Shown here: one piece after another, positions 2,548 to 19,953 of the stretch | Position numbering within the stretch: position 1 is the stretch's first letter | Layout: each line of letters starts with the position of its first letter | Assembly (NCBI GenBank): GCA_963702415.1 | Contig: CAVPCP010000025.1 | Location: 29,973-93,972 of the forward strand | Source: an uncultured Bacteroidales bacterium | Lineage (GTDB): Bacteria > Bacteroidota > Bacteroidia > Bacteroidales > VadinHA17 | Direction of reading: 5' to 3' | Length of the DNA: 64,000 nucleotides | Program-made: the position numbers and the translations under genes | The notes under the pieces: generated by a model | Told to the model about the DNA's origin: nothing | The model's database searches: none | Seen by the model: only the letters and a program-made list of their open reading frames with translations

Positions 2548-5500
2548 CTAATTTCTCATTAACCGCCGGTATCTTAAGTATGCATTCAGTGAAAGTGAAA
2601 CAAGTACGATAACGGCAATATATACAAATGCCGGTACAGGGACCGGGTCGCCCCCGGCATACGAATGCAGGCCCGAGAGGTAATAGTTAACCCCGAAATA
2701 AGTCATCAGGACTGACGAGAATGCAAAGAGCGACAGCAGGTTAAATGTGTAAATATCTTTCATCCCGGGATATTCCGTGAGTGAATGACAATACTATATA
2801 TAATAATAGTTATCAGCGACCAAGTTTCCTTTGGATCCCATCCCCAGTACCTGCCCCAGGATTCATTTGCCCAGACAGCTCCAAGAAAGGTTCCGATTGT
2901 AAGCAGATAGAGTCCTAATGTCAGTGTCCTGTAGTTTATTACAACAAGCTCATCAATTGTATCCGAGATCCTGTTCATATTACTTTTGTCTGCAAGCGAG
3001 AGCAGTATCATTGTTATTATGCTCAGAATTGCACCCAGACCAAGGAATCCATAGCTCCCCGTAATTACAGATACATGTAGTGTTAACCAGTAGGATTGCA
3101 ACACCGGTACCAGGCTGGTAATCTCAGGATCCATGAAGCTGAGATGAGCGACCATTAGTGTCATTCCTGCAAGCACCGCTGTTGCGGAAAGTGCAAAAAC
3201 CGATTTCCGGCTGAAAATGAAACCTGCAAGGAGTGTAACCCACGAAATGAAAATCATCGATTCATAGCCGTTGCTCATGGGTGAATGTCCGGAAATGTAC
3301 CAGCGAAGCCCCAGTCCAAATGTATGGAAGAGGAATCCTGCAAAAAGATCCCAGCCCATGAATCTTAACAAATAATGAAATTTTGTTTCTGCCTCTTAAC
3401 ACCATTATTATCAGGCCTGTAAGCATAAGAAGGCCTATCGAGGCATAAAAGGGAAAAAGTCTCTCAAAAATCATTAGCCTGTAATACAAATATTCAGCTT
3501 TCGATTTTGAATCAGGAGGCAGATCGTACTTTGCAAATTTCTTCTGATAATCGATCACTGATGTTGTGACCTGTTTTGCGGTCTGAAGGTTATTGGTATG
3601 CAATGCTTCGGCAAGCAAGGGGATAATGTTCTTGAGATAAGTGGAATCTTCCCTGTTCATCGCCGTCTTCAGAGCTTCATCCGGGGAGGCCCAGTTGTGG
3701 GAATCATCATGAAGGGGAAATATCTTAAGGAAATTGCCAGTATAGATCATATACAGTATATTCACCCTCTCGTCGACTTTCATAATTTCCTTATCAGTCT
3801 TTGTCCTTTCACCCGGGGCTTTTGAATACGCTTTATTAATCCCTTCAGTTAGTTTATACGATCCTCCGTTATCAAAATTGACAAGATCAGAAAAAGCAAC
3901 ACGGTTTACGCTGATGCCAAGGCTTTTCTGCAGGTCCTTGTTTGATACCCTGATCATCGGGACATCTTTCCAGTTATCGAAATCGAGATAGACACCAAGA
4001 AATACCTGCATTGGGGTAAATCCATCCAATTTGCTTTCCCTGGCAACTTTTCTCAGAATGTCATTACTGAGAGTGAACAGAGGTTTCGTCCGTCCCTTCT
4101 GATCCTGAACCAGGACCTTTCCAAATTCTTCCGCACTATTTTTATCTGCAACAAGTTTCTGGGCATCTGTAAATCCGGTACCTGAAAACAATAATAAAAT
4201 AACAGCTGCCGTTACTTTCTTTCTCAGTGCAGATTCCCAGCGCCCGGCATTAATATTATTAAAAACAGATTCCCTGTTAAAAAGAGAAAGGATAATAAAC
4301 AGAACCAGCAATCCGTAGCCTGTATAAGTCACCAACATACCTGCCCGATCGTTATTAACCGACAGAATTGTACCCATTTCATCAGGATCATAAGATGACT
4401 GGTAAAAGCGATAACCTTTGTATTTCAGAATATTATTCATAAAGACTGTATAAGGCTTTTCAATGTTTGCTGCCTTATCTATCAGAACCACCTCGCTTTT
4501 ATAGCCCGATGGGCTGTTTGAACCCGGATACCTTTCAATCTGAAAATCATTCAGCCTTAATGAGAATGGAAGGGAGACTTCTGCTGACCCATATATTATT
4601 TCAAGGGTTTTATTATCAAAGTATACTGACTCTGAAACACGATTTACATCTGCATTATCCCATAAATTTATTGTTGAGACTATTTCATCGCCTGAATGAA
4701 GATTGAAAGTAAACAGGTTCTTCCCTGTCTCCTGATGATTGATGTCGACCGAAACAGTTTTTAAGATCCCTTTTAATGACATCTCCTGGGGCACAATTCT
4801 CAAGCCTTTGACTGTAATGATCTGCATCTGCTTTAATTCGGCCGTAACGCCCGATATCGACCGGTAAGGTTTCACGGGTCATCATATTGGTCAGGTCAAA
4901 CCTGAACTTTGATTTTACGAGGAATGAAACAGAATCATTGAAAAAGGTAATATCGCAATCAGCAGGTGGATTTAAGCCTATGGAGAAATCATTAAAAACA
5001 GTCGATTCGCCGTCTTTCAGGTGTAAGGTTTCCCTTTTAACAGTGTCGGTAACAACTATCGAAATTACCGGCTTCCCCTGGGGAGAATCGGAAACTACCT
5101 CAGCTGCATTCGGCAAAATGCTGGCAAGGATAAGCTTATAATCCCCGCCATCTGATTTTAACTTTTTCTTATATTTTTCAGCAGAAGCAGATCCCATATA
5201 ATATTTCTCTGAACTCTGATCAAGAATATTTCCTGAATTATCTTTCAGGATATAGCCAAGATTTTTATCCGATGAGAAGCATTTATTCTGTTCCTCTCCC
5301 TCCCGGATATGAATTGATCCCTCCCATCCGGTATATCTTGTAATTCCGGCACCTGCAATAATAAGTATGAAAGATAAATGGAATAGTAATATAGTAAGTT
5401 TTGATTTTTTATACAACTTATAAATTATCATCTGTCCTGCCAGATTGACAGCCAGGAGAAGCAATATAAGCTCAAACCATCTTGTATCATAAACAAAATT

Positions 5501-5620
5501 ATATGCTGCTGAGGAGCCATAGTCATTTTCAATAAATGTGGCGGCAGCCATTGATGCAGCAAATACTACAAACAGAATCCCCATAAAGACAGGGGAAAAC
5601 AGATATTTCATTCCTTTCAT
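2548..5620 (-). CDS. ccsA: System II cytochrome c biogenesis protein, fused ResB/ResC (CcsBA), split by 3 frameshifts
   Basis: Four overlapping ORFs join into one protein: ATFIEND/FHLSFILI ResB N-terminus, YRFYQSSYD, and WWD domain WANESWGRYWGWDPKETW with GVNYYLSGLHSY. Breaks near 4860, 3360 and 2761. Confidence 0.9.
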
Positions 5621-5640
5621 AATTTCAAATAGTTAATTCA

Positions 5641-5791
5641 AGTTCCTGGTTTCTGGGTACTTGTTGCTGGTTAAATACTGATTAATAATGGAATTCATTC
5701 TTAAATACTAATTCATCAAATTATTTAGCATATTCAAAATGCACATTTTTAAACACGTCAGCTGAGCAACCAGCAATCAGTATCAAGCAAC
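5641..5791. repeat. degenerate heptamer repeats in inverted arms
   Basis: ttcctgg/ttgctgg units at 5641-5672 are mirrored by agcaacc/agcaatc units at 5764-5791; ttgctggtt pairs with aaccagcaa. Confidence 0.5.
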
Positions 5792-5828
5792 ATTAAGTTA
5801 GTTAATCCTTTATTCAGAATTTTTATTT

Positions 5829-6526
5829 TTATCCTTTTTCCGAAATTTGATGTAGTCTTTTCCCTGTTAAGAATTTTTAAATCCGACAACCTGGTTTTTA
5901 TTAACTCCCAAATCTTCAAATTCTTTAAGAATTCTAACTACGCTTTCCTTAACCATGTTTGTCATTTCACCAAGTTCCTGCCTCGAAAGAATCATCTCAT
6001 ACTCATCTGATCCAAAAACATCATCGGATAAATAGAGTAATACCTCTGCCATCCTTCCGGGCATTTTTTTCTGTGCCAGATTAACCATTCGTGTATGGGA
6101 CCTTAGCGATTTTACACTAATATCCTGAAGCATACTTTCGGCAAAATCGCCATTTACCTTTACAAGATGTTTGAATATATCAAAGCTGATAAAGCATGCC
6201 CTTACGGAAGTCAATGCTGAAACCGAATAGGTATACCTCGAATTGACATAGGCTCCTGGTCCCATGATAAGCATGCCCGGAAGCAAAATACTCATTATAA
6301 AATTCCTGCCATGCAATCCTTCAACATAATTCTTTGCCATGCCCGAAGCAATGAATAAAGCGTTAGAGGAAGGGGATCCCTGTTTAATCAGTATCTCCCC
6401 GGGCTTAAACGTCGCTTCATACCTGTTCTCGTTAACCTGCTGCAATTCTGATTTTGTAAGGTGCTTAAAGTTCTCCCATCTTACCAGACAATTCTCACAA
6501 CTTTCAATTGAATTTGTTCCGGACAT
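5829..6526 (-). CDS. Crp/Fnr family transcriptional regulator (C-terminus apparently frameshifted)
   Basis: cNMP-binding-like domain (FKPGEILIKQG), HTH LSRQELGEMTNMVKESVVRILKEF and N-terminal CxxC. The track ORF ends at 5867, but other frames continue ...LKILNREK..HQISEKG* to 5829. Confidence 0.88.
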
Positions 6527-6604
6527 GATCCTTAAATTAAGGGGTTTAAAAATATAGTTACTAAATGCATAAAAATGGAAACCTCACAAAGATCACTATT
6601 TTAA

Positions 6605-6618
6605 GTGACATATATCAC
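6605..6618. promoter_or_regulatory. Crp/Fnr-type operator GTGA-N6-TCAC
   Basis: GTGACATATATCAC lies in the divergent spacer between the Crp/Fnr gene and the hexaheme cytochrome gene. Confidence 0.65.
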
Positions 6619-6733
6619 CTGATCTCTTTATATCTGTCAATCTTGCATATTGCAAATAGCATGAGCACTGTTAATAAATTAACAATAGTTAATGACTAAA
6701 TTGCATCCGGAAATCAATCTTAAAACCGATATT

Positions 6734-7936
6734 ATGAAAAACCTGTTAAAACTGTTTACCATTTTCTTTTCTGCAGCTCTTCTGTTTTCAGCCTGTGAAG
6801 GACCAATGGGTCCGGCCGGTGCAGACGGATCAGACGGAGCTGACGGAGCTGACGGCACAGATGCAAATGAGACCTGCAAAACCTGTCATAACAGTACAGT
6901 TGTTCAGGCAAAAGCCATTGAATATGAGCACTCGCTTCATTTCACCGGAGAGGCCTTTGAGGAAGGGACGAGAAATAATTGTGCCCCTTGCCACTCTCAT
7001 CAGGGGTTCCTTGATGTTATCAAGAACAATACTCCGGCAACTATTGTTGTGAATCCTACAGATCCCACTAAATATGTAAATAATTATGTGGCGAGCGCTT
7101 CAGCAATTGCTCTGCCCGGAGCGATAAGCTGTTTCACCTGCCACAGTTCACTTCATAAAGAGTATGAATCGACAGAATTCATGCCGCTCGCAACCACAGC
7201 TTCGGTATCAATGACCATGTGGGGCGGATCAAAAAGTATCAATTTTGCACAGACCACCTCGAACCTTTGTGCTAAATGTCACCAGCCAAGACCAATAACT
7301 GCTTCTTCTGGCGCTTTGATTGATTATTCAAAACTGGTTTCAGAACCAGCAACAACTTATTCACTGTCGTCAATATCGTACCGGACTGGTGTTCATTATG
7401 GAACTCATGCTGCGATGGCTGCAGGAGTAGGAGGCATTGAATTCGGAACAGGATATACTAATTCTGCACACGTTGCCGGCGCTTCATGTACGGATTGCCA
7501 TATGGCCACTCCTTCAGGACTTGCCGGAGGACATTCATTTAATGCCACAGGGAATTTTGCAGGCTGCAACACCACAGGTTGCCACACATCAATGAGTTCA
7601 TCAAATGCAACATTCACAGCTGCAACGGCAGATATCACTACCAAGCTTGGTGAACTTGCTGCCGAGATCAATGCTATAGGGGCGGGACACGATATTCTTC
7701 AGAAAGATCCTGTAGATGGGTTATATCATGGATATTTTGATATTTATGATCAATCCGCTAATCCAACCGGATATTGGAAGAATCCGGCAAACGGGACTCC
7801 TGCATTCCCGGCATTAACCAATGCACAGTTTGGCGCAGTCCTTAATTACCAGCTTGTATTCAGGGATGCAAGTAAGGGGGTACATAATTATCCATACATT
7901 AAAAAACTCCTTGAGAACACATTATCTGCGATCTAA
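6734..7936 (+). CDS. multiheme (5 CXXCH + 1 CX4CH) cytochrome c lipoprotein with collagen-like linker
   Basis: Start MKNLLK at 6734; lipobox FSA-C; 7 Gly-X-Y triplets; CKTCH, CAPCH, CFTCH, CAKCH, CTDCH, CNTTGCH; C-terminal DASKGVHNYPY..LL helix. Confidence 0.9.
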   Translation: MKNLLKLFTIFFSAALLFSACEGPMGPAGADGSDGADGADGTDANETCKTCHNSTVVQAKAIEYEHSLHFTGEAFEEGTRNNCAPCHSHQGFLDVIKNNTPATIVVNPTDPTKYVNNYVASASAIALPGAISCFTCHSSLHKEYESTEFMPLATTASVSMTMWGGSKSINFAQTTSNLCAKCHQPRPITASSGALIDYSKLVSEPATTYSLSSISYRTGVHYGTHAAMAAGVGGIEFGTGYTNSAHVAGASCTDCHMATPSGLAGGHSFNATGNFAGCNTTGCHTSMSSSNATFTAATADITTKLGELAAEINAIGAGHDILQKDPVDGLYHGYFDIYDQSANPTGYWKNPANGTPAFPALTNAQFGAVLNYQLVFRDASKGVHNYPYIKKLLENTLSAI

Positions 7937-7957
7937 TTAGAAGTAAATCCTGATAAA

Positions 7958-8002
7958 AAAAACAGAAGGGGCGTTGCATGATGCAACGCCCCTTCTGTTT
8001 TT
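7958..8002. terminator. bidirectional intrinsic terminator
   Basis: Perfect inverted repeat AAAAACAGAAGGGGCGTTGCAT-G-ATGCAACGCCCCTTCTGTTTTT between convergent genes, with A/T tails on both sides. Confidence 0.9.
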
Positions 8003-8026
8003 ATATCCGATTTCTGAAACTGAAAT

Positions 8027-8443
8027 CTATTTCTTGAATGTCCTCATATAATTTACCGTATTCCAGAGATCATCATCCGATAATTTACCTTCATACTTGG
8101 GCATTTCATCCCTTCCGAATTTGGACTTGTAAAAATGTTCACCATCAGTCTGGTTCTGATAAGCTGCACCTGAGAAGTCACCAGGATGACTTTTCAGAGC
8201 TCTGGCTTTAACTCCGTCCCCAAGGCCTGTTTTACCATGACATGAAGCACAATTCTTATCATACAGGGTCTTTCCTGCTTTGTTACTTGCCTCACCTGGT
8301 GCAACGGGATTTTTCATCGTTTTAAAGTTAGCCGGAACATCCCATGGTTTTGGCTGAGTCTGTGCCTCCAGATTCATAGTAATGAAAGAAAGGCCAATAA
8401 CTGCCACTGCTGAACTAATTAAGATTTTCTTAAATGTTTTCAT
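8027..8443 (-). CDS. periplasmic class I monoheme cytochrome c
   Basis: Signal peptide, KNP..GKTLYDKNCASCHG, and distal Met (DEMP). Confidence 0.9.
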   Translation of the reverse strand: MKTFKKILISSAVAVIGLSFITMNLEAQTQPKPWDVPANFKTMKNPVAPGEASNKAGKTLYDKNCASCHGKTGLGDGVKARALKSHPGDFSGAAYQNQTDGEHFYKSKFGRDEMPKYEGKLSDDDLWNTVNYMRTFKK

Positions 8444-8510
8444 AATTTACTGTTTTCTAATTTTTGTTAAATAATACAATAATCGTGCAAATATTAATTT
8501 AATGTCAATA

Positions 8511-9401
8511 TTACAGCTTAGCTTTTTTCTTACTTTCTCTTTTAATTAGAATAAGACTTATGATTGCAAACAGATAGTGCCCCCATACACCTGCAAGAAG
8601 AACTGAGAGTGTAATTATCATCCACCTCGGTGCAGTCTTTGTCCAAAGGGCTCTATGTGATACCGGGGCCTGATTTGCAGAAGGAACGCCCCATTTTATT
8701 TCAACTTTCTTTTCAACATTCCCAAAATCCGGATGTTCTTCAAATTTTGAAATAATTGTAAGATTCCCTTCACTGTCTCCCGGTAAGTCAGATGGAAATT
8801 CAAGGCTGGCAGTCCCGCCTTCATCCAGTGTTGCCTCACCTATGGGCAACAGACTGAACATCCTTGGCACATATATCATCACCACTTCTTCTGAGACCGG
8901 GATGTCTGAGGTATTTTGCGGTGCAACAGCTTTCAGGGAAATAGTTTTAATACTGTCAACCTCCTGTAAAGACATTTCAAGCCTGACATCCTTGATTGAA
9001 AGTTCTGAGTTGGCCGCTTCGATTGTATCGTTCCCATTAAACTCAGTACTGAACATCCAAAGTCCATCTTCATTAATTGGGAGTCTGATATTTTTTGTCA
9101 ATTCCAGGCTGGCAACACCTTTATAATCGGTAAAAACGGTACCCAGTAACTCTTTTCCTTCTGCTTCGGAAAAAAATGATATTTCCATCCCGGGAATGGG
9201 TATTTCCATTCTGTTAAAAGAATAGGTCAGCGTTGTTTTCAGAGACCGCGATTCATCAGTATTCTTAAAGTACTGAAGCTGGATGTATGGACTTATTATA
9301 TTTTCTTCCTGTGATAATATTGGATATGAACCTAATAAAAGAAACAATAAGGCAGTATAAAATATTGATGATCCGTTTTTCATATTAAATACCTTAATCA
9401 T
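8511..9401 (-). CDS. exported protein with C-terminal membrane anchor, function unknown (cytochrome operon member)
   Basis: N-terminal signal, acidic beta-rich body, C-terminal hydrophobic helix and Lys-rich tail; no heme motif; abuts nrfD. Confidence 0.7.
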   Translation of the reverse strand: MIKVFNMKNGSSIFYTALLFLLLGSYPILSQEENIISPYIQLQYFKNTDESRSLKTTLTYSFNRMEIPIPGMEISFFSEAEGKELLGTVFTDYKGVASLELTKNIRLPINEDGLWMFSTEFNGNDTIEAANSELSIKDVRLEMSLQEVDSIKTISLKAVAPQNTSDIPVSEEVVMIYVPRMFSLLPIGEATLDEGGTASLEFPSDLPGDSEGNLTIISKFEEHPDFGNVEKKVEIKWGVPSANQAPVSHRALWTKTAPRWMIITLSVLLAGVWGHYLFAIISLILIKRESKKKAKL

Positions 9402-10710
9402 CTATTTAAGAATTTCCTCAGCGTCGTGTTCCTGCATCTCGGATATTGATACTATAGGGGCTATTTTCGAAATAAGCATGAACAGCATTACAAAAACTGA
9501 AACTCCGGCAAGAGTAAGAGACCATTCAATCCATGTCGGAGAATATTTAATCCATTCTGCCCTTGTATCCTGAACTGGCAGGAACGGTGTTTCAAGTGTT
9601 GGTATTACAATAATGTAACGGTTAACCCACAATGCAAGTACGGCAATAACAGATGCCACAGTAATGTTAGGAATTGTACGGAATTTAGGGAATGCAATTA
9701 TAATTGCGGGAAGCAGTATTCCTATATAATTGGCAAAAATAAAGAGCAAATAATATTCGTTAAAAAGTTTGTCGATCAGAATTGAATCCATTTTTATTGA
9801 TCCGTACCATTTTGTCAGGTAATCACTGAATGTAAAGTATCCGTAAAATGCTGCAATAACTGTAAGCAGGACACCGACATTTACAAAATGACGTTTAGTT
9901 ATATACTCTTCAAGATGATAAATTCTTCTGAATATCCACATTAGTATTATTAGGAGCCCCGTACCTGAAAAGACAGCTGCAATGACAAAGTAAGGACCGA
10001 AAATTGTTGAGTGCCAGCCAGGCTGTAATGTAACACCAAAAATCCAGGCAAGAACTGAATAAACAATAATTGCTATTGCAATTATCATCACCGACATAAT
10101 TGTCCTTGCGTTTGATAACAGCTTTTTTTGTCGTGGAGACCCATCATATCCAAGTGAAAGTACTTTATATAACTTTCTTTTCCATGGGGGAACCCGGAGC
10201 CCGTCGTAGTCGCGTAATATTGCAAAATCCTCAACAAATGAGAGGTACAGATAAATAAAACACCCGAAAAGGTCTGTTATAATTGCTATAACGTCCCATG
10301 TTATTGGTGATTGTATTCTTGGATGAATAAACAGGAAGTATAATCTGTCAAGGCGGCCTATGCAGAAAAAAATAAAAAAAGGACCTATTATCAGCGAAAT
10401 AACAGTAATCAGCTCAGCCATTCTGATTACCGGCTTTCTCCATCCGGTATTGAACAAATGCAAGGACTCCCGAAATAAGTGCCCCCGAATAACTTAACCC
10501 CATAAAAAAGATAAAATTCACTATATAAAAGCCCCAGACAACATTATCGCGCATGCCTGTTACAATATGTCCTTTATCGATCTGCTGTATCAATCCATAA
10601 ATTCCTAAAAGGAAAAAGCCAAGGAAAACTGAAAAGGTAATATACCAGGTTGTGCTGGTACTTTCAATTTCCGGAGTAAGATCTTTAAGAAGTTTTTTGT
10701 CAGCTTGCAT
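9402..10710 (-). CDS. NrfD/PsrC family quinol-interacting membrane subunit (one frameshift near 10460)
   Basis: VTGMRDNVVWGFYIVNFIFFMG (ORF 10414-10710) continues into R.AEL..GRLDR..SPITWD..GWHST..PYFV..A.FSG (ORF 9402-10463); many TM helices. Confidence 0.9.
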
Positions 10711-10733
10711 CCTGAATTATTTTCCGAAGTTTA

Positions 10734-11699
10734 TTAACGTGGCCCGGCTTTTTCGTACCTTCCTTTTATATTTTCATCATAGCCATCAAGACCTCTTTCA
10801 ACAGGAAACATTCTCTGGGTCGGTGGCAGGTAGAAAACACTTGGCAATGTCCCCAGTTCTTCACGGTATCTGAAACCGGCCCTGTCGTTCATCAGCTTGC
10901 TGAATCGGACAGTCTCTTCTCCATTTGTAACTGTATCTTCAAGAAGATCCCCGAAGTAGATAACTCCCATCGGACATGCGGTTACACAACGCGGAAGCAG
11001 ATTCTTCCGGAGGTTATCGGCACAGAATACACATTTTCCGACAGTTCCTTCCACCGGAGGGATATTGGTCTCTGGATCATATACATGCCCTTCGGGTAAT
11101 TTAACTTCCGGATCTTTCCAGTTGAATACTCTTGCAGAATAAGGGCAACCAGTCATACAGAATTTGCAGCCAATGCACCTTTGATTATCTACAAGTACAA
11201 TTCCATCAGCACGCTTGTATGTTGCACCAACAGGGCAAACGCTTACACACATCGGTTTATCGCAGTGAAAGCAAGGTCTCGGGAACCAGTATTTTGAAGT
11301 GTTGTTATCATCCTGAAGAAGGTATAGTTTAATCCATTCATGGTCTTTTGGGAGCATATGACCTTCCTGACAGGCATCGACGCATTTTCTGGCATTTTTG
11401 CACTTTGCCAGGTCGATTACCATAACGAATTTCCTGTATGGCAATCCCTTTCTTGCTTCCTCCTTAAGTTCTGCAACAATTTCGCGGGATGGCCTGATAT
11501 CATCCTTATCGACTTCAACAAGTTTACCTTCAGGCGATAAAAGCTTAATCTTAACGCCTGATTTTGTACCACTTTCGTGATTCATGCCTGCAGAACCTGC
11601 AACACCTGCAAGCGTTACAGCACCAACTCCGGCACTCATCTTTTTGAGGAATCCGCGCCGTGATGATTTTCCTGATTTTTCCGGGTCTTTACCTTTCAT
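10734..11699 (-). CDS. Tat-exported NrfC/DmsB-like 4Fe-4S protein
   Basis: SRRGFLK Tat motif; CKNARKC..C, CFHC..PMCVSVCP, CIGCKFCMTGCP, KCVFC..PRCVTACP. Confidence 0.92.
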   Translation of the reverse strand: MKGKDPEKSGKSSRRGFLKKMSAGVGAVTLAGVAGSAGMNHESGTKSGVKIKLLSPEGKLVEVDKDDIRPSREIVAELKEEARKGLPYRKFVMVIDLAKCKNARKCVDACQEGHMLPKDHEWIKLYLLQDDNNTSKYWFPRPCFHCDKPMCVSVCPVGATYKRADGIVLVDNQRCIGCKFCMTGCPYSARVFNWKDPEVKLPEGHVYDPETNIPPVEGTVGKCVFCADNLRKNLLPRCVTACPMGVIYFGDLLEDTVTNGEETVRFSKLMNDRAGFRYREELGTLPSVFYLPPTQRMFPVERGLDGYDENIKGRYEKAGPR

Positions 11700-11702
11700 T
11701 TC

Positions 11703-12326
11703 TTAGTCATTGTGATTTTCCGGTTCATGGTAGCCTGAAACCATACTTTTAAAAAGGGAAGTCGGACGTGCGCCGAGTGTACAGGTATAAATATGAATTA
11801 TCATAAATACAGATAAGAAAAATCCCATCGTAATATGAAGAATATCTGTAAGTATCATTCCGCTGATCCCGATAAACCGGTTTATGACAGTTTCAGGGAA
11901 AAGTAACCCCAGCCCCGAGATTATAAGCAGGGGTACAGCAACATACATCGCAAGAAAATAGGAGAGTTTCTGTAACGGATTGAATTTTTGTTCCAGTGTT
12001 ACCGGAAATGGATGTTTCTGCCCTTTAAAAATCCCGAATGCATAATACTTAACCTGGGTTGTCAAATCTGCGAGGAAATTCTTTTTTTCAATTTTGTAGT
12101 ACCTGCCGTTTCCCGAAAGGATATTACCTGTTACAAAAATTATATAATTTATGGTAAGAAGTATCGCAGCAATATTATGCCATTTTACCGCTCTGGCAAA
12201 ACCGACCATCAGAATGTAATCCTTCATGTCAGTATACTGCATGCTGATACCGGTTACGATCAAAACAAGGAAAAGGATCGCATTAAACAGATGCCATAAC
12301 CTTACCCATATAGGATATAGATACAT
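11703..12326 (-). CDS. di-heme cytochrome b membrane subunit (FdnI/HydC/PhsC type)
   Basis: Four TM helices with His in RLWH, WHN, ILHI and IHIY; KFNPLQKLSY motif. Confidence 0.9.
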   Translation of the reverse strand: MYLYPIWVRLWHLFNAILFLVLIVTGISMQYTDMKDYILMVGFARAVKWHNIAAILLTINYIIFVTGNILSGNGRYYKIEKKNFLADLTTQVKYYAFGIFKGQKHPFPVTLEQKFNPLQKLSYFLAMYVAVPLLIISGLGLLFPETVINRFIGISGMILTDILHITMGFFLSVFMIIHIYTCTLGARPTSLFKSMVSGYHEPENHND

Positions 12327-12338
12327 TTTCGTTTGTTT

Positions 12339-13318
12339 TTATTTTCTGATAACCCTGAAATAAATATGTACAATAATAATTATCAATACAATGCCAGTTA
12401 TGAGAAGGCTTATAATATTAAGATACTCATTCCTGTTTGCACCGATTACATATGACTGGTTCAGGATTATTCCATTAAGAAATCCATCCTGCCGTTGTTC
12501 TTTTGACTGGAATTTATAAAGTGATGACATTAGTAATGAGTTCCTGGAGTGACATTCATTGCACCCTTTTACTGCTTCCTCCTTTGGCTTGATAAGATGT
12601 GCAACAAGAATAGTATCATTGACCATCGTATGGCATTCAATGCATCTGACACTTTTAAAATGGGTTTCCTGATTTGGCAGCCATTCATGTTTCTTTAGAA
12701 TGTTTATCTCTTCTTTCTCGGATAATAACTGGAACTGGTCATAATGTGAGTGACACCTCAGACATATGTTATTATCGTAAAGAATTGTCTCCTTCAGATT
12801 TGAAGTGTTCCGGATACTGATTTTGTAGTCATGCGGTCCATGGCATTTCCAGCAGGAAAAACCTTCTTCTTCTAATTTAAAATGAGAACTCTTCTGGTAT
12901 TCAGATTCTATTTCTTCAAAATTAAACTGAGCAAATTTTTCATCATTTCCATGGCAGTCAATGCAATTGTACATCTGTTCCATCCGTAGTTCCCCGGAAT
13001 GCGGGAAGTTTTCATAATCGGAGGAATGACAATCGGTACAACTGAAACTTTTATGGTTTGACTGATAAAACTTATCCCTGTTAATTATCCTTTCTGAAAA
13101 CATTGATGCCTTAACCATGGCGTCCAAGGTTTTCATTATTATACTCATACTTATTCTGTCCGTGACATTTAAAACAGCGCTCATTATCTTCGTAAAAAGG
13201 AGATTTAAAGGATACTGTATCCTGCGTACCAGTTTGTTTATTGTAAAAAACCGATCCGTTTACTGAAATATTTGAAATTAAAGTGACAAACAAAACAAAA
13301 AGAACATGTCTGAACATT
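12339..13318 (-). CDS. membrane-anchored heptaheme cytochrome c (one frameshift near 13120)
   Basis: N-terminal ORF has a signal and CFKCH; C-terminal ORF has CTDCH, CIDCH, CWKCH, CLRCH, CIECH, CNECH, then YVIGANR and a TM helix containing His. Confidence 0.88.
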
Positions 13319-13349
13319 GTTAAACTTATCACGTGCTTTTAAAATTAGT

Positions 13350-14213
13350 TTAGAATCTCACTGTAATATTAAACCCTACAAGATATTCCCAATCTGTAAG
13401 GGCATTTGTATTATATAGCAGATTGTACTGGTTTATAATGTTCGAATAATTTGTGACGAAAACCTGGAACGAGTGAGTAGCTGTGCCTATTTCCCAGCCC
13501 AGTGACAGGCTTGGTTTTGGCTGTTCATCAAGATCCTGTTTTGTCAGAAGCTGATCATATTCAAAAATTAACGAATGAGAACCAAAAAGATTTGCCCGGC
13601 CTCCTGCCGATACCCCGAAATTGAGGTTCTTATAACTTGATTCATTAGAATACTGGGGCACCGCATTGAAATAGATAACTGACGGTGCCAACTGGAAGGA
13701 GAATTTTTCACTGAACTTACGGGCCAGGATCAGTTGCGTAAAATACGATAACCGGTGTATGAACCTGTACCTTTCCTCCGGACCGAAAGCATCCTGATCG
13801 CGAAGGTCAAGCACAAGATTTCCATAATATGAAAGAGAAACGGGCATACTGTTATCTTCCGTTTGCTGAAGAATCAGATATTTCCATTGAAGGTCCTGGA
13901 GCTTATAATCCTTTGTTGTTCCTGCTCCAATCATTATTCTGTCAGTTATTCCGTAATTCAAACCCAGCCGTGTATTTGCAGCGCCATAAATTCCAAAAAG
14001 ATTATCAATGTTTTCAATCAGACTGAACCTGTGATGTATCTGAAATTCAAGCCCTCCCTTGTAAGGAGTTGCAACTGTCTGATTCTCAATAAGTGTACCA
14101 GTACCAAATGTGAATCGTACAGGTTTGGATTTTTCAGGTGCCGGGGCCTCCTCCTGAGCTGATAATGAAACCATGAAGGCCGATAACAGCAACAATAAAA
14201 AAGTCTTTTTCAT
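13350..14213 (-). CDS. outer-membrane beta-barrel protein (DUF5777-like)
   Basis: Signal peptide, alternating amphipathic strands, EFQIHHRF / HSFQVF motifs, and terminal GFNITVRF BAM signal. Confidence 0.8.
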   Translation of the reverse strand: MKKTFLLLLLSAFMVSLSAQEEAPAPEKSKPVRFTFGTGTLIENQTVATPYKGGLEFQIHHRFSLIENIDNLFGIYGAANTRLGLNYGITDRIMIGAGTTKDYKLQDLQWKYLILQQTEDNSMPVSLSYYGNLVLDLRDQDAFGPEERYRFIHRLSYFTQLILARKFSEKFSFQLAPSVIYFNAVPQYSNESSYKNLNFGVSAGGRANLFGSHSLIFEYDQLLTKQDLDEQPKPSLSLGWEIGTATHSFQVFVTNYSNIINQYNLLYNTNALTDWEYLVGFNITVRF

Positions 14214-14240
14214 TTTATCTGGTTTTAGGATTATTTTTAA

Positions 14241-14618
14241 TTAATTGTTTTGTGCGCCCTGATCGATCCAGTTATAAATCAGTTGTTTTTCAGGATCGAT
14301 TGTAAAGGATGTATGATTGGATGAAGTAATCTTCTTATAGAGTCTGCTGTCGGCTGCCGGAAGATTTACATACCCTCCTGTGGTAAGCGACTCATAGGAA
14401 TTACCATCTCTCAGGTCAGGATCACGTGAGCCTTTATGACAAGTGATGCAGTTATCATTGAATATTGGCTGAACCTGGGTCTGAAACAAGACCGTTTCCC
14501 CCGGATCGACTTCCTCCTGGACAATTTTATATTCTTCACAGGATGAAAAGAAGATCATACATGCCGGAATTAATAATGCCGTCATAGCCCTCCAAAACAA
14601 TTTCGTTCTTATTTTCAT
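14241..14618 (-). CDS. monoheme cytochrome c lipoprotein
   Basis: Lipobox FSS-C followed by EEYK; FQTQVQPIFNDNCITCH; C-terminal WIDQGAQNN. Confidence 0.85.
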   Translation of the reverse strand: MKIRTKLFWRAMTALLIPACMIFFSSCEEYKIVQEEVDPGETVLFQTQVQPIFNDNCITCHKGSRDPDLRDGNSYESLTTGGYVNLPAADSRLYKKITSSNHTSFTIDPEKQLIYNWIDQGAQNN

Positions 14619-14643
14619 TATTTAATTACTGTTAATTTATTCA

Positions 14644-14740
14644 CAAAGATATCGGGATTACTGACTAATAGAATATTACAGCCATTATTTTTGTATCCTA
14701 TTCCATGCTGTTTATCATATAAGAAATTGATCTATGTCAT
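14644..14740 (-). promoter_or_regulatory. promoter of cytochrome operon: -7 box plus two Fnr-like sites
   Basis: Minus-strand TATCTTTG at 14644-14651; TTGATCTATGTCAT at 14727-14740 and ATGCTGTTTATCAT at 14705-14718 match or approach TGA-N6-TCA. Confidence 0.6.
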
Positions 14741-14916: not shown

Positions 14917-16695
14917 CTAAAAGTTATAAAAGTTATCCTCAATAAGCTTATCGGCTATCCGCCTTCGTGCGTCCTTAATATTTATTCCTTTTACCTTAGC
15001 CAGTATTTCAATGGCACTGACCAGTCCTGGCATTGATTCCGGGGAGGCAAAAGAACAGACAGCATCCATTGCTGATTTTCTGACTATGTCGGATGTATCA
15101 TAGATATTTACGTCGAGCATATCTTTATAAACTGATACATGACCCTTTAATGCTTCAAGTTTTTCAACACGCAATGCAAGTGATTCGGAAAGATATGTTT
15201 CCATCATCATTTCGGCAATATTGTTCATTACCTCCTGCTCGCTGACAAGATTCTTGCCAAATTGACTGACTGCCCCATGCATGCAAAGAAGGATTATCTT
15301 CTTGAAATTCCTTGTATACCTCTTTTTTTCCTGGAAATATGACTCCTCTGAATTTTTTCCGTCGGTTATTTCATCCAGTTCATTATATAGTTTCTCAGCC
15401 TCTCCGAAAAGGTTAAAATCACCTTTCATGGCGCGTTTCATTGCAGTATCAGAAACCAGAAGCCGGTTGATCTCGTTTGTTCCTTCGAAGATCCTGTTTA
15501 TTCTCGAATCACGGTACCCTCTTTCCACATCCATTTCAGCTGAATATCCCATACCTCCATAAATCTGAACAGCTTCATCAGCAATAAAATCAAGCATTTC
15601 AGAACCGACTACCTTCAGGATTGCAGCTTCGACTGCATAATGGCTTATGGCCTCAATGGCGGCCCTTCCTTTGTCGCCGCATTCTGATTTCATCTTTTCC
15701 ATCAGATCATCAATATCACTGCTTACCCTGTAGACAGCTGATTCTGACGCAAAAAGTCTGATTACCTGTTCAGCAAGCTTATGTTTTATGGCTCCGAAAG
15801 TTGAGATCAGAACCCCGAACTGCTTGCGCTCATTGGCGTATTTCACCGAATCGTTAATCGCTTTCTTTGCAGCTCCAAGGACATTGGCACCAAGCTTCAG
15901 CCTTCCCATATGAAGAATGCTAAGAGCAATCCTGAAACCTTCGCCTCTTTTTCCAAGGAGATTTTCAACAGGGACATTAACATCGTTAAAATAGATCTGA
16001 GCTGTCGAAGATCCCTTTATACCCATCTTGTGCTCATCAGGACCAATCACCACACCGGGATATTTGCTTTCAATAATGAAGGCGCTCAGTACCCTGTCGT
16101 TGTCAATTTTTGCAAAAACGACAAGAGTATCTGCAAATCCGGCATTGGTGATCCACATCTTTTGCCCGTTAATTATATAGTGTTTACTGTCGTCCGAAAG
16201 CTTCGCGTTTGTTTTTCCTGAATTAGCATCACTGCCTGCACCTGGTTCTGTAAGGCAATAAGCGCCAATCAATTCACCGGTAGCAAGTTTCGTAACGTAC
16301 CGCTGCCTCTGATCTTCATTCCCGTAGTACATTATCGGCAGTGTTCCAATACCGCAATGAGCCATATAAGCTACTGAAAATGAATAACCTGCACCTGTCG
16401 TTTCAGCAACAAGCATTTGGGTAACAAAATTCTGTCCGAACCCGCCGTATTCTTCGGGTATGGAAATTCCCAGCATCCCAAGATCTCCGGATTTCTTCAG
16501 GATGATTTTCATAAGCTCCCGGTCGCTTTTCTCAAGCGCCTCCATGCTGGGATAAACTTCAGCCTCAAGAAAATCCTTGCATGACTGGGCAATCATTCTC
16601 TGTTCCTCGTTAAATTCTTCGGGAATAAAAATATCCTTTGCTTCAATTTCATTAACAAGGAATTCTCCGCTTTTCAAGATTTTTCTGGTCTCCAT
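14917..16695 (-). CDS. acyl-CoA dehydrogenase (long, FadE/VLCAD-like)
   Basis: AYCLTEPGAGSDA, NGQKMWITN, KMGIKGSST, ERKQFG, GGMGYS, RIFEGTNEINR. Confidence 0.95.
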   Translation of the reverse strand: METRKILKSGEFLVNEIEAKDIFIPEEFNEEQRMIAQSCKDFLEAEVYPSMEALEKSDRELMKIILKKSGDLGMLGISIPEEYGGFGQNFVTQMLVAETTGAGYSFSVAYMAHCGIGTLPIMYYGNEDQRQRYVTKLATGELIGAYCLTEPGAGSDANSGKTNAKLSDDSKHYIINGQKMWITNAGFADTLVVFAKIDNDRVLSAFIIESKYPGVVIGPDEHKMGIKGSSTAQIYFNDVNVPVENLLGKRGEGFRIALSILHMGRLKLGANVLGAAKKAINDSVKYANERKQFGVLISTFGAIKHKLAEQVIRLFASESAVYRVSSDIDDLMEKMKSECGDKGRAAIEAISHYAVEAAILKVVGSEMLDFIADEAVQIYGGMGYSAEMDVERGYRDSRINRIFEGTNEINRLLVSDTAMKRAMKGDFNLFGEAEKLYNELDEITDGKNSEESYFQEKKRYTRNFKKIILLCMHGAVSQFGKNLVSEQEVMNNIAEMMMETYLSESLALRVEKLEALKGHVSVYKDMLDVNIYDTSDIVRKSAMDAVCSFASPESMPGLVSAIEILAKVKGINIKDARRRIADKLIEDNFYNF

Positions 16696-16736
16696 TTCGG
16701 TTATTTAAAAATTAAGTAATTCATTTTACAATTTTG

Positions 16737-16844
16737 TTTGCCCCCAACCCCCTGAAGGGGGCTAAACCCATTGCTTTTACTACCAACTCATTTGCCCCCA
16801 ACCCCCTGAAGGGGGCTTAATCCAATGCTTTCACCACCAATTCA
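16737..16844. repeat. 54-bp tandem duplication containing a REP-like hairpin and the 3' end of the Fe-S oxidoreductase gene
   Basis: Units 16737-16790 and 16791-16844 share TTTGCCCCCAACCCCCTGAAGGGGGCT exactly and differ at 6 positions in the remainder. Confidence 0.85.
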
Positions 16845-18910: not shown

Positions 18911-18923
18911 TATTATAGTTATT

Positions 18924-18950
18924 GTACGGGCATAGCATGCTATGCCCCGC
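18924..18950. repeat. REP-like palindrome
   Basis: GTAC followed by the perfect 20-bp palindrome GGGCATAGCATGCTATGCCC (18928-18947) between etfA and fadF. Confidence 0.65.
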
Positions 18951-18959
18951 CCCTTCCAT

Positions 18960-19928: not shown

Positions 19929-19953
19929 ATGGTTTGGTGTTTTTTGAATATTT

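What the first reader, a model, noticed from the sequence alone, without database searches (positions are those of the whole stretch)
2548..14740. Candidate quinol-to-cell-surface electron conduit in a Bacteroidales-like organism
Seen: one operon (14618 to 8027) encodes, in order, a heme-c lipoprotein, an OM beta-barrel, a 7-heme anchored cytochrome, a di-heme cytochrome b, a Tat 4Fe-4S protein, NrfD, an anchored protein and a periplasmic monoheme cytochrome. It converges on a 6-heme lipoprotein and is flanked by a dedicated CcsBA and a Crp/Fnr gene, giving 15 heme-c motifs in about 8 kb. There is no molybdopterin, hydrogenase, CXXCK nitrite reductase or oxidase subunit. Known: multiheme c plus cytochrome b (CbcL/CbcBA) and NrfC/NrfD modules are quinol-oxidising units in Geobacter, and porin-cytochrome pairs cross outer membranes. 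Inference: this is a complete inner membrane-periplasm-OM chain for extracellular electron transfer (metals, humics, electrodes or partner cells) built from non-Mtr/non-Omc parts, in a lineage usually regarded as fermentative.
Basis: partly seen in the sequence, partly recalled or inferred. Interest (0 to 1): 0.9.

Follow-up and report, generated by a model that had tools for sequence, protein, structure and literature searches.

The report
Cytochrome chain to an outer-membrane barrel
A sediment Bacteroidales genome carries a conserved set of cytochrome genes that seems to wire the membrane quinone pool to a small outer-membrane barrel with two one-heme partners and a six-heme lipoprotein, which looks like a new way for bacteria to pass electrons to or from the outside.

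Summary
All 11 genes and 15 heme motifs (14 CXXCH plus one CX4CH) are at the stated places. The five frameshifts are assembly errors.

- The barrel (DUF5777), the one-heme lipoprotein (lipoC), the periplasmic cytochrome (c1) and the six-heme lipoprotein stay together across at least four Bacteroidia lineages despite rearrangement.
- The inner-membrane parts are interchangeable: a 7-heme cytochrome plus cytochrome b (a split CbcL-like unit), and/or FeS+NrfD+anchor (in 22 of 47 loci).
- Natural fusions of a c1-like cytochrome to a DUF5777 barrel exist (67 of 120 listed relatives). A lipoC gene follows them in 16 of 16 loci. This is a Cyc2-like layout built from unrelated families.
- The six-heme protein belongs to the OcwA/NrfA superfamily but lacks NrfA's catalytic residues. 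In other Bacteroidota classes its relatives sit in porin-cytochrome clusters.

Corrections: the CcsBA is the genome's only copy, not a dedicated one. The organism is not purely fermentative: it also has cytochrome bd, an ACIII-like cluster near a heme-copper oxidase gene, and an NrfA fragment.

Not shown: which side of the outer membrane the lipoproteins face, the direction of electron flow, and expression. No structure or complex prediction could be obtained.

The parts
14241..14618 (-). lipoC: 125-aa lipoprotein with one heme-c motif (CITCH)
   Evidence: Lipobox Cys, C57/C60/H61 and W117 are invariant in 32 orthologues. It is found next to the barrel in 57 of 59 loci. Homologues follow the fused c1::DUF5777 genes in 16 of 16 loci.
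13350..14213 (-). Outer-membrane beta-barrel, DUF5777, cytochrome-cluster subfamily
   Evidence: PF19089 2.1e-69. Signal peptide and invariant C-terminal Phe. The 18 cluster-linked barrels form one side of a branch (SH-aLRT 99-100) against 32 canonical and 13 fused barrels.
12339..13332 (-). 7-heme cytochrome c with a C-terminal membrane anchor (1-base assembly error near 13117)
   Evidence: 7 CXXCH. In 53 orthologues there are 7 further invariant His outside the anchor, enough for all hemes to be bis-His, plus H321 in the C-terminal anchor. Intact at 330-336 aa in relatives. Fused to cytochrome b in G041 and G169.
11703..12326 (-). Di-heme cytochrome b (PhsC/FdnI/HydC type)
   Evidence: PF01292 4.7e-25. 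Close to the PhsC model at 1.2e-53, just under its cut-off. Four invariant His in 44 orthologues.
10734..11699 (-). 4Fe-4S protein (NrfC/DsrO-like) with an RRGFL twin-arginine N-terminus (read by eye, no predictor run); optional module
   Evidence: PF13247 6.1e-23; DsrO model 8.1e-55, under its cut-off. With NrfD and the anchor protein it is present in 22 of 47 loci that span the site.
9402..10710 (-). NrfD-family membrane subunit, about 440 aa (1-base assembly error near 10464); optional module
   Evidence: PF03916 1.1e-20. Intact at 435-454 aa in relatives. Indel at 10464 in 3 of the 4 runs laid.
8511..9401 (-). 296-aa protein with a signal peptide and a C-terminal membrane helix, no known family; optional module
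   Evidence: No Pfam or NCBIfam hit. No Cys among the residues conserved in at least 93% of 18 orthologues. No likeness to this genome's ActD-position protein (E 5.3). Always travels with FeS+NrfD.
8027..8443 (-). c1: periplasmic one-heme class-I cytochrome c
   Evidence: PF00034 1.5e-12. CXXCH plus a conserved Met (M112) in 47 orthologues. 36% identical (E 1e-25) to the cytochrome domain of the natural c1::DUF5777 fusion P0246.
7959..8001 (.). Two-way terminator hairpin between the converging operon and the six-heme gene
   Evidence: 20-bp stem with 10 G-C pairs, flanked by A and T runs.
6734..7936 (+). Six-heme lipoprotein of the OcwA/NrfA superfamily on a collagen-like stalk
   Evidence: 5 CXXCH + CX4CH and 6 further invariant His. 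Profile against solved structures: OcwA 6i5b 7.3e-11, octaheme nitrite reductase 5.4e-7, NrfA 1.7e-5. The alignment puts no His or Tyr at the places I take, from memory, to be NrfA's catalytic H277 and Y218, and the motif is CXXCH, not CXXCK. G-X-Y runs of 2-11 triplets in 42 orthologues.
5867..6526 (-). Crp/Fnr-family regulator with FNR-like cysteines
   Evidence: PF00027 + PF13545. C10 and C13 conserved in 85-87% and C111 in 95% of 39 orthologues. Found in 34 of 42 loci with room.
2548..5620 (-). CcsBA (fused ResB + CcsA) heme lyase with three 1-base assembly errors; the genome's only copy
   Evidence: PF05140 and PF01578. Indels at all three junctions. The single PF01578 match in G000, G131 and G219.

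Best explanation
This is a modular respiratory gene cluster that links the menaquinone pool to a cytochrome-and-barrel module in the outer membrane.

Proposed path. Steps 1 and 2 rest on family membership and conserved ligands. Steps 3 and 4 are inferred from fusions and synteny.
1. Quinol is oxidised (or quinone reduced) by a split CbcL-like unit: a 7-heme, all-bis-His cytochrome c anchored next to a di-heme cytochrome b. In about half of the relatives a second FeS+NrfD+anchor unit is also present.
2. Electrons pass to c1, a soluble one-heme cytochrome c.
3. c1 docks at the periplasmic mouth of the DUF5777 barrel. In other Bacteroidota the two are one polypeptide. The barrel works with lipoC, a one-heme lipoprotein. 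This is the same logic as the fused cytochrome-porin Cyc2, built from unrelated families.
4. The six-heme lipoprotein is an OcwA/NrfA-superfamily protein that lacks NrfA's catalytic residues and is held on a collagen-like stalk. It is the multi-heme end station that hands electrons to Fe(III), humic quinones or another acceptor at or beyond the outer membrane.

An FNR-like regulator controls the cluster. The flanking CcsBA is the cell's general heme lyase. I put about 0.5 on electron exchange at or across the outer membrane, and about 0.35-0.4 on the outward (reductive) direction specifically.
For: Gene content and ligands.

Co-conservation across 63 loci, with rearranged copies in other lineages.
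- The outer set (lipoC, barrel, c1, six-heme protein) persists where the 7-heme + cytochrome b unit is missing (L036, L038, G219).
- It also persists where the FeS/NrfD trio is missing (25 of 47 loci).

Barrel subfamily: the 18 cluster-linked barrels form one side of a branch (SH-aLRT 99-100), apart from the second, canonical DUF5777 copies in the same genomes G000, G131 and G219.

Fusions:
- P0246 = signal peptide + c1-like cytochrome (36% identity, E 1e-25) + linker without a second signal peptide + DUF5777.
- 67 of the 120 listed relatives carry both domains, at 40-100% identity.
- lipoC is the next gene in 16 of 16 loci with room downstream.

Six-heme protein:
- The profile matches OcwA, the surface terminal reductase of Thermincola, at 7.3e-11 (PMC6703420, passages read).
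- Its relatives in other Bacteroidota classes lie in clusters of 11-heme, 4-heme, a ~430-aa non-heme protein ending in Phe, 12-14-heme, and a lipoprotein cytochrome. This held in 5 of 5 loci examined.
- That layout matches the Pcc clusters reported for Ignavibacteria (PMC4245776 and PMC7399161, passages read).

CbcL has the same design in fused form: a di-heme b domain plus nine bis-His c hemes (PMC9129911, abstract and passages). Relatives G041 and G169 have the fused form.

Cyc2 layout: signal peptide, one heme, barrel, with the cytochrome as a periplasmic plug (10.1101/228056, passages read).
Against: - Neither lipoprotein has the canonical Bacteroidetes surface-export signal. The six-heme protein starts CEGPMG and lipoC starts CEEYK (CEKY in most orthologues). 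The published signals are C-X-K-(D/E)2-X, SDDDD and SDFFE-type SDDFE. Both may therefore face the periplasm.
- The barrel is small: a 247-position domain with roughly 12-14 amphipathic segments by eye. Cyc2 has 16 strands and MtrB has 26. No model could be made.
- DUF5777 is in 167 of 401 sampled Bacteroidota genomes. Most copies have lipoC and a YceI-like gene and no multi-heme partner. The barrel module may therefore have a more general, non-respiratory role.
- NrfA-superfamily members are mostly periplasmic enzymes.
- No expression, localisation or activity data exist.
- The direction of flow cannot be read from sequence.
- The genome has other respiratory routes.
Confidence: 0.5

Rival explanations
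1. The chain is wholly periplasmic, like NrfABCD. Quinol is oxidised by the cytochrome b and NrfCD units. The 7-heme protein and c1 carry electrons. The six-heme NrfA-superfamily lipoprotein, anchored to a membrane's periplasmic face, reduces a soluble substrate such as a nitrogen or sulfur oxyanion or chelated Fe(III). The barrel is only the substrate or product channel.
For: - The six-heme profile matches octaheme nitrite reductase (5.4e-7) and NrfA (1.7e-5). Its hemes 3-6 align with NrfA hemes 2-5.
- The 7-heme protein has weak NrfB-like hits. FeS and NrfD are NrfC/NrfD-like.
- No canonical surface-export signal on either lipoprotein.
- OcwA itself reduces nitrite and hydroxylamine slowly (PMC6703420, passages read).
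Against: - NrfA hallmarks are missing: CXXCH in place of CXXCK, and the alignment puts CHQPR where I recall NrfA's CH-x-x-Tyr and GG(I/V)EF where I recall its KAQH catalytic His (the residue numbers are from memory).
- There are six invariant extra His for six hemes, which leaves no obviously open heme.
- This reading gives no role to a one-heme lipoprotein and a barrel-tethered cytochrome c, which are conserved with the six-heme protein.
- Relatives of the six-heme protein sit in porin-cytochrome-like clusters.
Confidence: 0.25
2. The conduit runs inward. It is a Cyc2-like Fe(II) oxidase, or an oxidase of another outside donor. Dissolved Fe2+ enters the barrel and is oxidised by c1 or lipoC. 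Electrons then go to the terminal oxidases or nitrite reductase, or uphill to the quinone pool through the cytochrome b and NrfD units.
For: - The c1::DUF5777 fusions have the Cyc2 layout (10.1101/228056, passages read).
- The minimal fused-gene + lipoC module stands without any multi-heme or quinol unit. A CydB-like gene (my reading of its N-terminal sequence; no family search was run) lies within 1-7 kb in 3 of the 4 loci whose ORFs were listed.
- This genome has cytochrome bd, a heme-copper oxidase and an NrfA fragment.
- Near relatives are held by freshwater-sediment and wetland runs.
Against: - A CbcL-like quinol unit, an FNR-like regulator and an OcwA-like multi-heme end protein are features of reductive pathways.
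- The six-heme protein's relatives sit in clusters of the type linked to Fe(III) reduction.
- No homology to Cyc2 was tested, because no Cyc2 sequence was at hand.
Confidence: 0.15
3. The cluster has no respiratory role. The DUF5777/lipoC/c1 module serves iron acquisition, redox sensing or defence against oxidants at the envelope. Its linkage to the multi-heme genes in this clade is secondary.
For: - DUF5777 is common in many Bacteroidota families (167 of 401 genomes).
- It usually sits with a YceI-like lipid-binding protein (28 of 31 loci) and lipoC (22 of 31 loci), without respiratory genes within 1.5 kb.
Against: - The window's barrel belongs to a separate, long-branched subfamily that always travels with quinol-linked cytochromes.
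- The genes share an operon-like arrangement that ends in one strong terminator.
Confidence: 0.1

Closest known systems
Cyc2 fused cytochrome-porin (iron oxidase of neutrophilic and acidophilic Fe oxidisers)
   Same: One c-type heme domain works with a small outer-membrane barrel. In the fused DUF5777 relatives the order is the same: signal peptide, cytochrome, barrel (10.1101/228056).
   Different: - Here the cytochrome (c1) and the barrel are separate genes.
- The cytochrome is an ordinary class-I domain (PF00034/PF13442).
- The barrel is DUF5777, with about 250 residues against Cyc2's 16 strands.
- A second one-heme lipoprotein (lipoC) is an obligate neighbour.
- Homology to Cyc2 was not tested.
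Porin-cytochrome complexes (Pcc OmaB/OmbB/OmcB of Geobacter; MtrCAB of Shewanella)
   Same: A barrel gene sits beside a lipoprotein multi-heme cytochrome and periplasmic cytochromes. Relatives of the six-heme protein lie inside Pcc-like clusters in other Bacteroidota classes (PMC4245776).
   Different: The barrel is far smaller than the large Pcc and Mtr porins (MtrB has 26 strands; 10.1101/228056). No periplasmic multi-heme cytochrome is available to thread through it; only one-heme partners are present.
CbcL (and CbcBA) inner-membrane quinol oxidoreductases of Geobacter sulfurreducens
   Same: A di-heme cytochrome b membrane domain is paired with a periplasmic all-bis-His multi-heme cytochrome c (PMC9129911). 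Fused versions exist in relatives.
   Different: Two genes here. Seven c hemes rather than nine. About 4+1 membrane helices by eye rather than six. Sequence homology to CbcL itself was not tested.
OcwA, nine-heme cell-surface terminal reductase of Thermincola potens (PDB 6I5B)
   Same: It is the best solved-structure match of the six-heme profile (7.3e-11). The two share the CxxCHM...H...CH block and the C-terminal G-(V/I)-H-N-Y helix.
   Different: Six hemes rather than nine. A lipoprotein with a collagen-like stalk in a Gram-negative cell. No sign of OcwA's two open-site His-His motifs was looked for beyond the alignment.
NrfABCD nitrite reductase system
   Same: An NrfA-superfamily cytochrome, an NrfB-like carrier, and NrfC-like and NrfD-like subunits.
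   Different: No CXXCK. By the alignment, no Tyr or His at the places I recall as NrfA's catalytic residues. Extra cytochrome b, barrel and lipoC. The NrfCD part is optional.
Alternative complex III (ActABCDEF)
   Same: The order FeS, NrfD, small anchored protein, one-heme cytochrome mirrors ActB-C-D-E. This genome's ACIII-like row (identified from gene order and weak family hits) holds the nearest paralogues, at 28-29% identity.
   Different: No molybdopterin-like half of ActB and no ActF. The anchor protein is unlike the ActD-position protein (E 5.3). The 7-heme protein is unlike the ActA-position protein (E 0.01).

Membership tests
DUF5777 (PF19089) outer-membrane barrel | Match to the family model over its whole length, above the curated cut-off | tested here: met
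   234 bits against a cut-off of 23.1, model positions 1-247. Invariant C-terminal Phe.
Porin-cytochrome complex (Pcc/Mtr type) | A large porin able to sheath a multi-heme cytochrome | tested here: not met
   Barrel domain of 247 positions, roughly 12-14 amphipathic segments by eye. No structure was obtained.
Porin-cytochrome complex (Pcc/Mtr type) | A periplasmic multi-heme cytochrome encoded beside the porin | tested here: not met
   The only soluble periplasmic cytochrome is the one-heme c1. The 7-heme protein is anchored in the inner membrane.
Porin-cytochrome complex (Pcc/Mtr type) | A surface-exposed lipoprotein multi-heme cytochrome | tested here: inconclusive
   A six-heme lipoprotein is present. 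It has no canonical surface-export signal. Its location is not testable here.
Cyc2 fused cytochrome-porin | One polypeptide: signal peptide, one CXXCH, then a barrel | tested here: not met
   c1 and the barrel are separate genes in the window. The fused form exists in 67 of 120 listed relatives of P0246.
Cyc2 fused cytochrome-porin | Sequence homology, including the family's cytochrome consensus motif | not tested
   No Cyc2 sequence was available from any tool. The likeness is one of layout only.
CbcL-type quinol oxidoreductase | Di-heme cytochrome b membrane domain | tested here: met
   PF01292 4.7e-25. Four invariant His in 44 orthologues.
CbcL-type quinol oxidoreductase | Periplasmic multi-heme c domain with all hemes bis-His, joined to the b domain | tested here: inconclusive
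   7 CXXCH plus 7 further invariant His outside the anchor. Separate genes here; fused at 515-521 aa in G041 and G169. Homology to CbcL not tested.
NrfA cytochrome c nitrite reductase (PF02335) | Family model above the cut-off | tested here: not met
   The window protein scores 10.7 bits against a cut-off of 24.1. Distant orthologues reach 24-28 bits. The profile reaches NrfA structures at 1.7e-5.
NrfA cytochrome c nitrite reductase (PF02335) | CXXCK active-site heme with catalytic Tyr and His | tested here: not met
   No CXXCK. The alignment puts CHQPR opposite NrfA's CHVEY and GG(I/V)EF opposite its KAQH. That these are the catalytic Y218 and H277 is recalled, not from a call.
Alternative complex III | ActB with a molybdopterin-like half, plus ActA, ActD and ActF | tested here: not met
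   The FeS protein is 321 aa with ferredoxin domains only. The anchor is unlike the ActD-position protein and the 7-heme protein is unlike the ActA-position protein. An ACIII-like row lies elsewhere in the genome.
CcsBA system II heme lyase | ResB and CcsA domains in one reading frame | tested here: met
   PF05140 and PF01578 on the pieces. One frame of 1036-1081 aa in G131 and G219. The breaks here are assembly errors.
FNR-type oxygen sensor within Crp/Fnr | Four cluster-binding cysteines (three N-terminal, one central) | tested here: inconclusive
   Three conserved Cys only: C10, C13 and C111. The E. coli pattern is recalled from memory.

The most novel reading that the evidence does not exclude
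DUF5777 barrels, together with a barrel-docked class-I cytochrome c and the lipoC one-heme lipoprotein, are a previously unrecognised family of minimal outer-membrane electron conduits. They are analogous to Cyc2 but unrelated to it. DUF5777 is present in about 40% of the Bacteroidota genomes sampled.

The family has three layouts:
1. lipoC, a YceI-like gene and the barrel.
2. A c1::barrel fusion plus lipoC.
3. The full chain seen here, in which the module is wired to menaquinol dehydrogenases and an OcwA-like six-heme lipoprotein on a collagen-like stalk.

The third layout would give sediment Bacteroidales a complete route for respiration on extracellular acceptors.
Probability: 0.4. Interest if true: 0.9.

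Novelty: new variant of a known kind. Interest (0 to 1): 0.78.

Why it matters
Bacteroidales are abundant in anoxic sediments, wetlands and digesters and are usually treated as fermenters.

A conserved cytochrome route from the quinone pool to the outer membrane would let them respire iron minerals, humic substances, electrodes or partner cells.

It would also give a function to DUF5777, a domain found in 167 of 401 sampled Bacteroidota genomes. No paper in the searched library mentions it.

The natural c1::DUF5777 fusion with its lipoC partner is only two genes. It could be expressed and assayed directly, which makes the question testable.

Tried and rejected
- **Pseudogene reading: rejected.** All five frameshifts are undone by 1-base indels in independent contigs. 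Relatives have intact genes.
- **'Dedicated' CcsBA: rejected.** There is one PF01578 match per genome in G000, G131 and G219. The sixth-heme motif type (CX4CH in 32 of 42) does not track CcsBA adjacency cleanly.
- **Canonical nitrite reductase: rejected**.
- **ACIII membership: rejected**.
- **Expression:** no RNA holder was listed for the stretch.
- **Complex of barrel with lipoC:** no result was ever returned. The queue was full, then there was no usable answer, then the cap was reported as used. No verdict.
- **Atlas look-up of the anchor protein:** failed. The look-up of P0014, a homologue of the six-heme protein, gave only leads: Bacteroidota, Gemmatimonadota, Myxococcota and Chloroflexota clusters.
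- **Surface-export signal test:** inconclusive. A crude scan of the genome's lipoproteins gave no clear local consensus.
- **Sigma-70 promoter scan:** uninformative, 49 sites found against 39.1 ± 5.4 expected.
- **Fused c1::DUF5777:** not found in the 401-genome sample at E ≤ 1e-70.
- **Literature:** searches found no paper that describes this cluster.
- **Supplements:** supplementary tables of PMC11495043 and PMC4245776, which may list such proteins, could not be read.

Full report
**What is there**

The minus strand from 14618 to 8027 carries eight genes:
- lipoC, a 125-aa lipoprotein with one CXXCH.
- A DUF5777 outer-membrane barrel (PF19089, 2.1e-69).
- A 7-heme cytochrome c with a C-terminal membrane helix.
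- A di-heme cytochrome b (PF01292; near the PhsC model).
- A 4Fe-4S protein with a twin-arginine N-terminus (seen in the translation). Its best model match is DsrO, under the cut-off.
- A long NrfD-family subunit.
- A 296-aa anchored protein with no family.
- c1, a class-I one-heme cytochrome c.

A 20-bp-stem hairpin at 7959-8001 ends both this operon and the converging six-heme lipoprotein gene at 6734-7936. A Crp/Fnr gene and a fused CcsBA follow. Heme motifs number 15. The sixth motif of the six-heme protein is CX4CH.

**The frameshifts are errors**

Contigs of four public runs differ from the window by single-base indels at each of the five junctions. Each site was corrected in three or four of the four runs. 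Relatives L003 and L008 have whole genes. The 95%-identical L001 has breaks in other genes.

**Co-conservation**

The barrel brought in 63 loci, all Bacteroidota MAGs and mostly Bacteroidales.

| Gene | Present | Loci with room |
|---|---|---|
| lipoC | 57 | 59 |
| 7-heme cytochrome | 54 | 58 |
| Cytochrome b | 53 | 58 |
| Six-heme protein | 36 | 42 |
| Crp/Fnr | 34 | 42 |
| CcsBA | 32 | 42 |
| FeS + NrfD + anchor | 22 | 47 |

The FeS + NrfD + anchor trio is counted over the loci that hold both cytochrome b and c1. L036 and L038 lack the 7-heme and cytochrome b genes but keep lipoC, the barrel and the six-heme protein (L036 also keeps c1).

Many of these loci are close kin, so the rearranged copies carry more weight:
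- L058 and L060 hold the same set in a different order.
- G131 (another order) has cytochrome b and the 7-heme gene diverging from lipoC, barrel, FeS, NrfD, anchor, c1 and the six-heme gene.
- G219 (another family) has the six-heme gene, an EB_dh-domain lipoprotein, lipoC, barrel, FeS, NrfD, anchor and c1, with no 7-heme or cytochrome b gene.

The outer set is therefore constant, and the quinone-linked units are interchangeable.

In a 401-genome sample of the phylum:
- The 7-heme protein was found in 4 genomes.
- The six-heme family was found in 32.
- DUF5777 was found in 167.

**The barrel family**

This genome has three DUF5777 genes. The C13 copy lies between a lipoC-like gene and a YceI-like gene.

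Among 31 best-scoring DUF5777 loci with 1.5 kb flanks, 28 have a YceI-like neighbour and 22 have a lipoC-like neighbour.

A tree of barrel sequences puts three groups each on one side of a branch, with SH-aLRT 96-100 (quick IQ-TREE search, midpoint root):
- 18 cluster-linked barrels.
- 32 canonical barrels.
- 13 fused barrels.

The groups were defined by their neighbouring genes. The tree was built from the barrels alone.

**The fusions**

A profile search of 1.84 billion representatives with the barrel alignment gave 1889 hits. One of them, P0246, carries four parts in order:
- A signal peptide.
- A class-I cytochrome c, 36% identical to c1 (E 1e-25).
- A hydrophilic linker with no second signal peptide.
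- A DUF5777 domain.

Of the 120 listed relatives of P0246, 67 hold both domains at 40-100% identity. One of them is named as coming from Lutibacter.

Metagenome contigs gave 17 full-length fused genes, all from one sample series. In 16 of the 16 with room downstream, the next gene is a lipoC homologue. No other gene of the cluster was found in these loci.

This ties c1, the barrel and lipoC into one module. Its layout is that of Cyc2: signal peptide, one heme, barrel, with the cytochrome thought to plug the periplasmic mouth (10.1101/228056, passages read).

**The six-heme protein**

In 28 orthologues, the six motifs and six further histidines are invariant. Its profile matches three groups of solved structures:
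- OcwA (6i5b) at 7.3e-11. The identity of this entry was checked in PMC6703420.
- An octaheme nitrite reductase at 5.4e-7.
- NrfA at 1.7e-5.

Its hemes 3-6 align with NrfA hemes 2-5. The alignment puts GG(I/V)EF opposite NrfA's KAQH and CHQPR opposite NrfA's CHVEY, and there is no CXXCK. That these NrfA positions are the catalytic His and Tyr is my recollection, not a tool result. This protein is therefore not a standard nitrite reductase. An all-bis-His electron carrier is the simplest reading, but that is an inference.

After the lipid-anchor Cys comes a run of 2-11 G-X-Y triplets, most often 6-7.

In five genomes of other Bacteroidota classes, its relatives keep the same CEGP...G-X-Y start. 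In 5 of 5 loci examined they lie in a cluster of this order:
- An 11-heme cytochrome.
- A 4-heme cytochrome.
- A ~430-aa non-heme protein that ends in Phe.
- A 12-14-heme cytochrome.
- A lipoprotein cytochrome.
- The six-heme relative.
- A CcmF-like gene.

This resembles the Pcc clusters reported for Ignavibacteria (PMC4245776, PMC7399161).

**The inner-membrane units**

- The 7-heme protein has seven further invariant His outside the anchor helix. Cytochrome b has four.
- In G041 and G169 the two are fused into 515-521 aa proteins.
- This is the design of CbcL (PMC9129911).
- FeS, NrfD and c1 have their nearest paralogues (28-29% identity) in an ACIII-like gene row on contig 22 of this genome. 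I identified that row from gene order and weak family hits.
- The anchor protein and the 7-heme protein are unlike the ActD-position and ActA-position proteins of that row.

**Limits**

- Neither lipoprotein shows the published surface-export signal.
- The barrel is small.
- No structure or complex prediction was obtained.
- No RNA run holds the stretch.
- The direction of electron flow is open.
- The genome is 73% complete.

**Verdict**

The outer-membrane part now rests on fusions and subfamily-level co-inheritance rather than on gene order alone.

I rate it a new variant of the porin-cytochrome idea, built from families that no paper in the searched library has discussed.

Noticed in passing
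window 14917-20703 (minus strand): Directly upstream of the cytochrome operon lie four genes: an acyl-CoA dehydrogenase, a 697-aa FeS protein with CCG domains, EtfA and EtfB. The FeS protein's best model hits are TfrB-, LdhH- and DsrK-like, all under their cut-offs. Together they look like an input route from fatty-acid oxidation to the quinone pool. The dehydrogenase is found in 53 of 63 related loci. That may be plain shared ancestry.
   Followed up: partly
G000 contig C13, L067 8673-10673; also L063 5215-7177: A three-gene set of lipoC-like lipoprotein, YceI-like protein and DUF5777 barrel recurs across many Bacteroidota families. A YceI-like gene is present in 28 of 31 loci and a lipoC-like gene in 22 of 31. 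Its function is unknown.
   Followed up: partly
P0246 and relatives; L150-L166: There is a family of natural fusions of a class-I cytochrome c to a DUF5777 barrel, each followed by a lipoC gene (16 of 16 loci with room). A gene whose N-terminal sequence looks CydB-like (my reading; no family search) lies within 1-7 kb in L153, L159 and L164.
   Followed up: yes
G000 contig C7:182609-185233 (L069 8631-11237): A run of open frames holds 31 CXXCH motifs in all. It is probably one very large cytochrome broken by assembly errors.
   Followed up: no
G000 contig C19 (L070 8829-9800 and 10232-11446): A 5-heme ExtKL-like cytochrome is followed by a 404-aa protein with a signal peptide, one CXXCH near the N-terminus and a C-terminal Phe. 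That protein has no family hit. From memory this looks like a Cyc2-type fused cytochrome-porin. This is unverified.
   Followed up: partly
G000 contig C22 (L073 9394-17306), C22:237266-238597, C25:9875-11389, C21:216412-217066: The genome also holds other respiratory genes. There is an ACIII-like gene row (6-heme QrcA-like protein, FeS fragments, NrfD-family subunit, small protein, one-heme lipoprotein, 415-aa protein), labelled from gene order and weak hits. A heme-copper oxidase gene lies about 3 kb beyond it. A cytochrome bd gene lies about 20 kb before the window. An NrfA C-terminal fragment lies near a contig end.
   Followed up: partly
G000 contig C23:126881-128434 (L074 7882-9435): One open frame joins a NapC/NirT four-heme domain to a formylglycine-generating-enzyme (sulfatase-modifying) domain.
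   Followed up: no
L083 9297-13019 and L084 6784-10497 (G169, G041): In another Bacteroidota class, the 7-heme cytochrome and cytochrome b are one 515-521 aa protein. It is followed by an 8-heme protein of about 715 aa. No DUF5777 barrel is nearby.
   Followed up: partly
L144 11053-12288 (G219): A 411-aa lipoprotein with an EB_dh domain (PF09459, 1.5e-30), which I recall as a heme-b binding fold, sits between the six-heme gene and lipoC in this relative's cluster.
   Followed up: no
window 6794-6856 and orthologues: The six-heme lipoprotein starts with a collagen-like G-X-Y run straight after the lipid-anchor Cys. The run is 2-11 triplets long in 42 orthologues. It is also present in relatives from other classes. 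An Atlas cluster of Myxococcota look-alikes carries the collagen family in 28% of its members. It may act as a trimer-forming stalk or a spacer.
   Followed up: partly
window 9386: Contigs of three of the four runs laid carry an extra A here, inside the first codons of the anchored protein. The true start of that gene, or its overlap with NrfD, may therefore differ from the window's reading.
   Followed up: no
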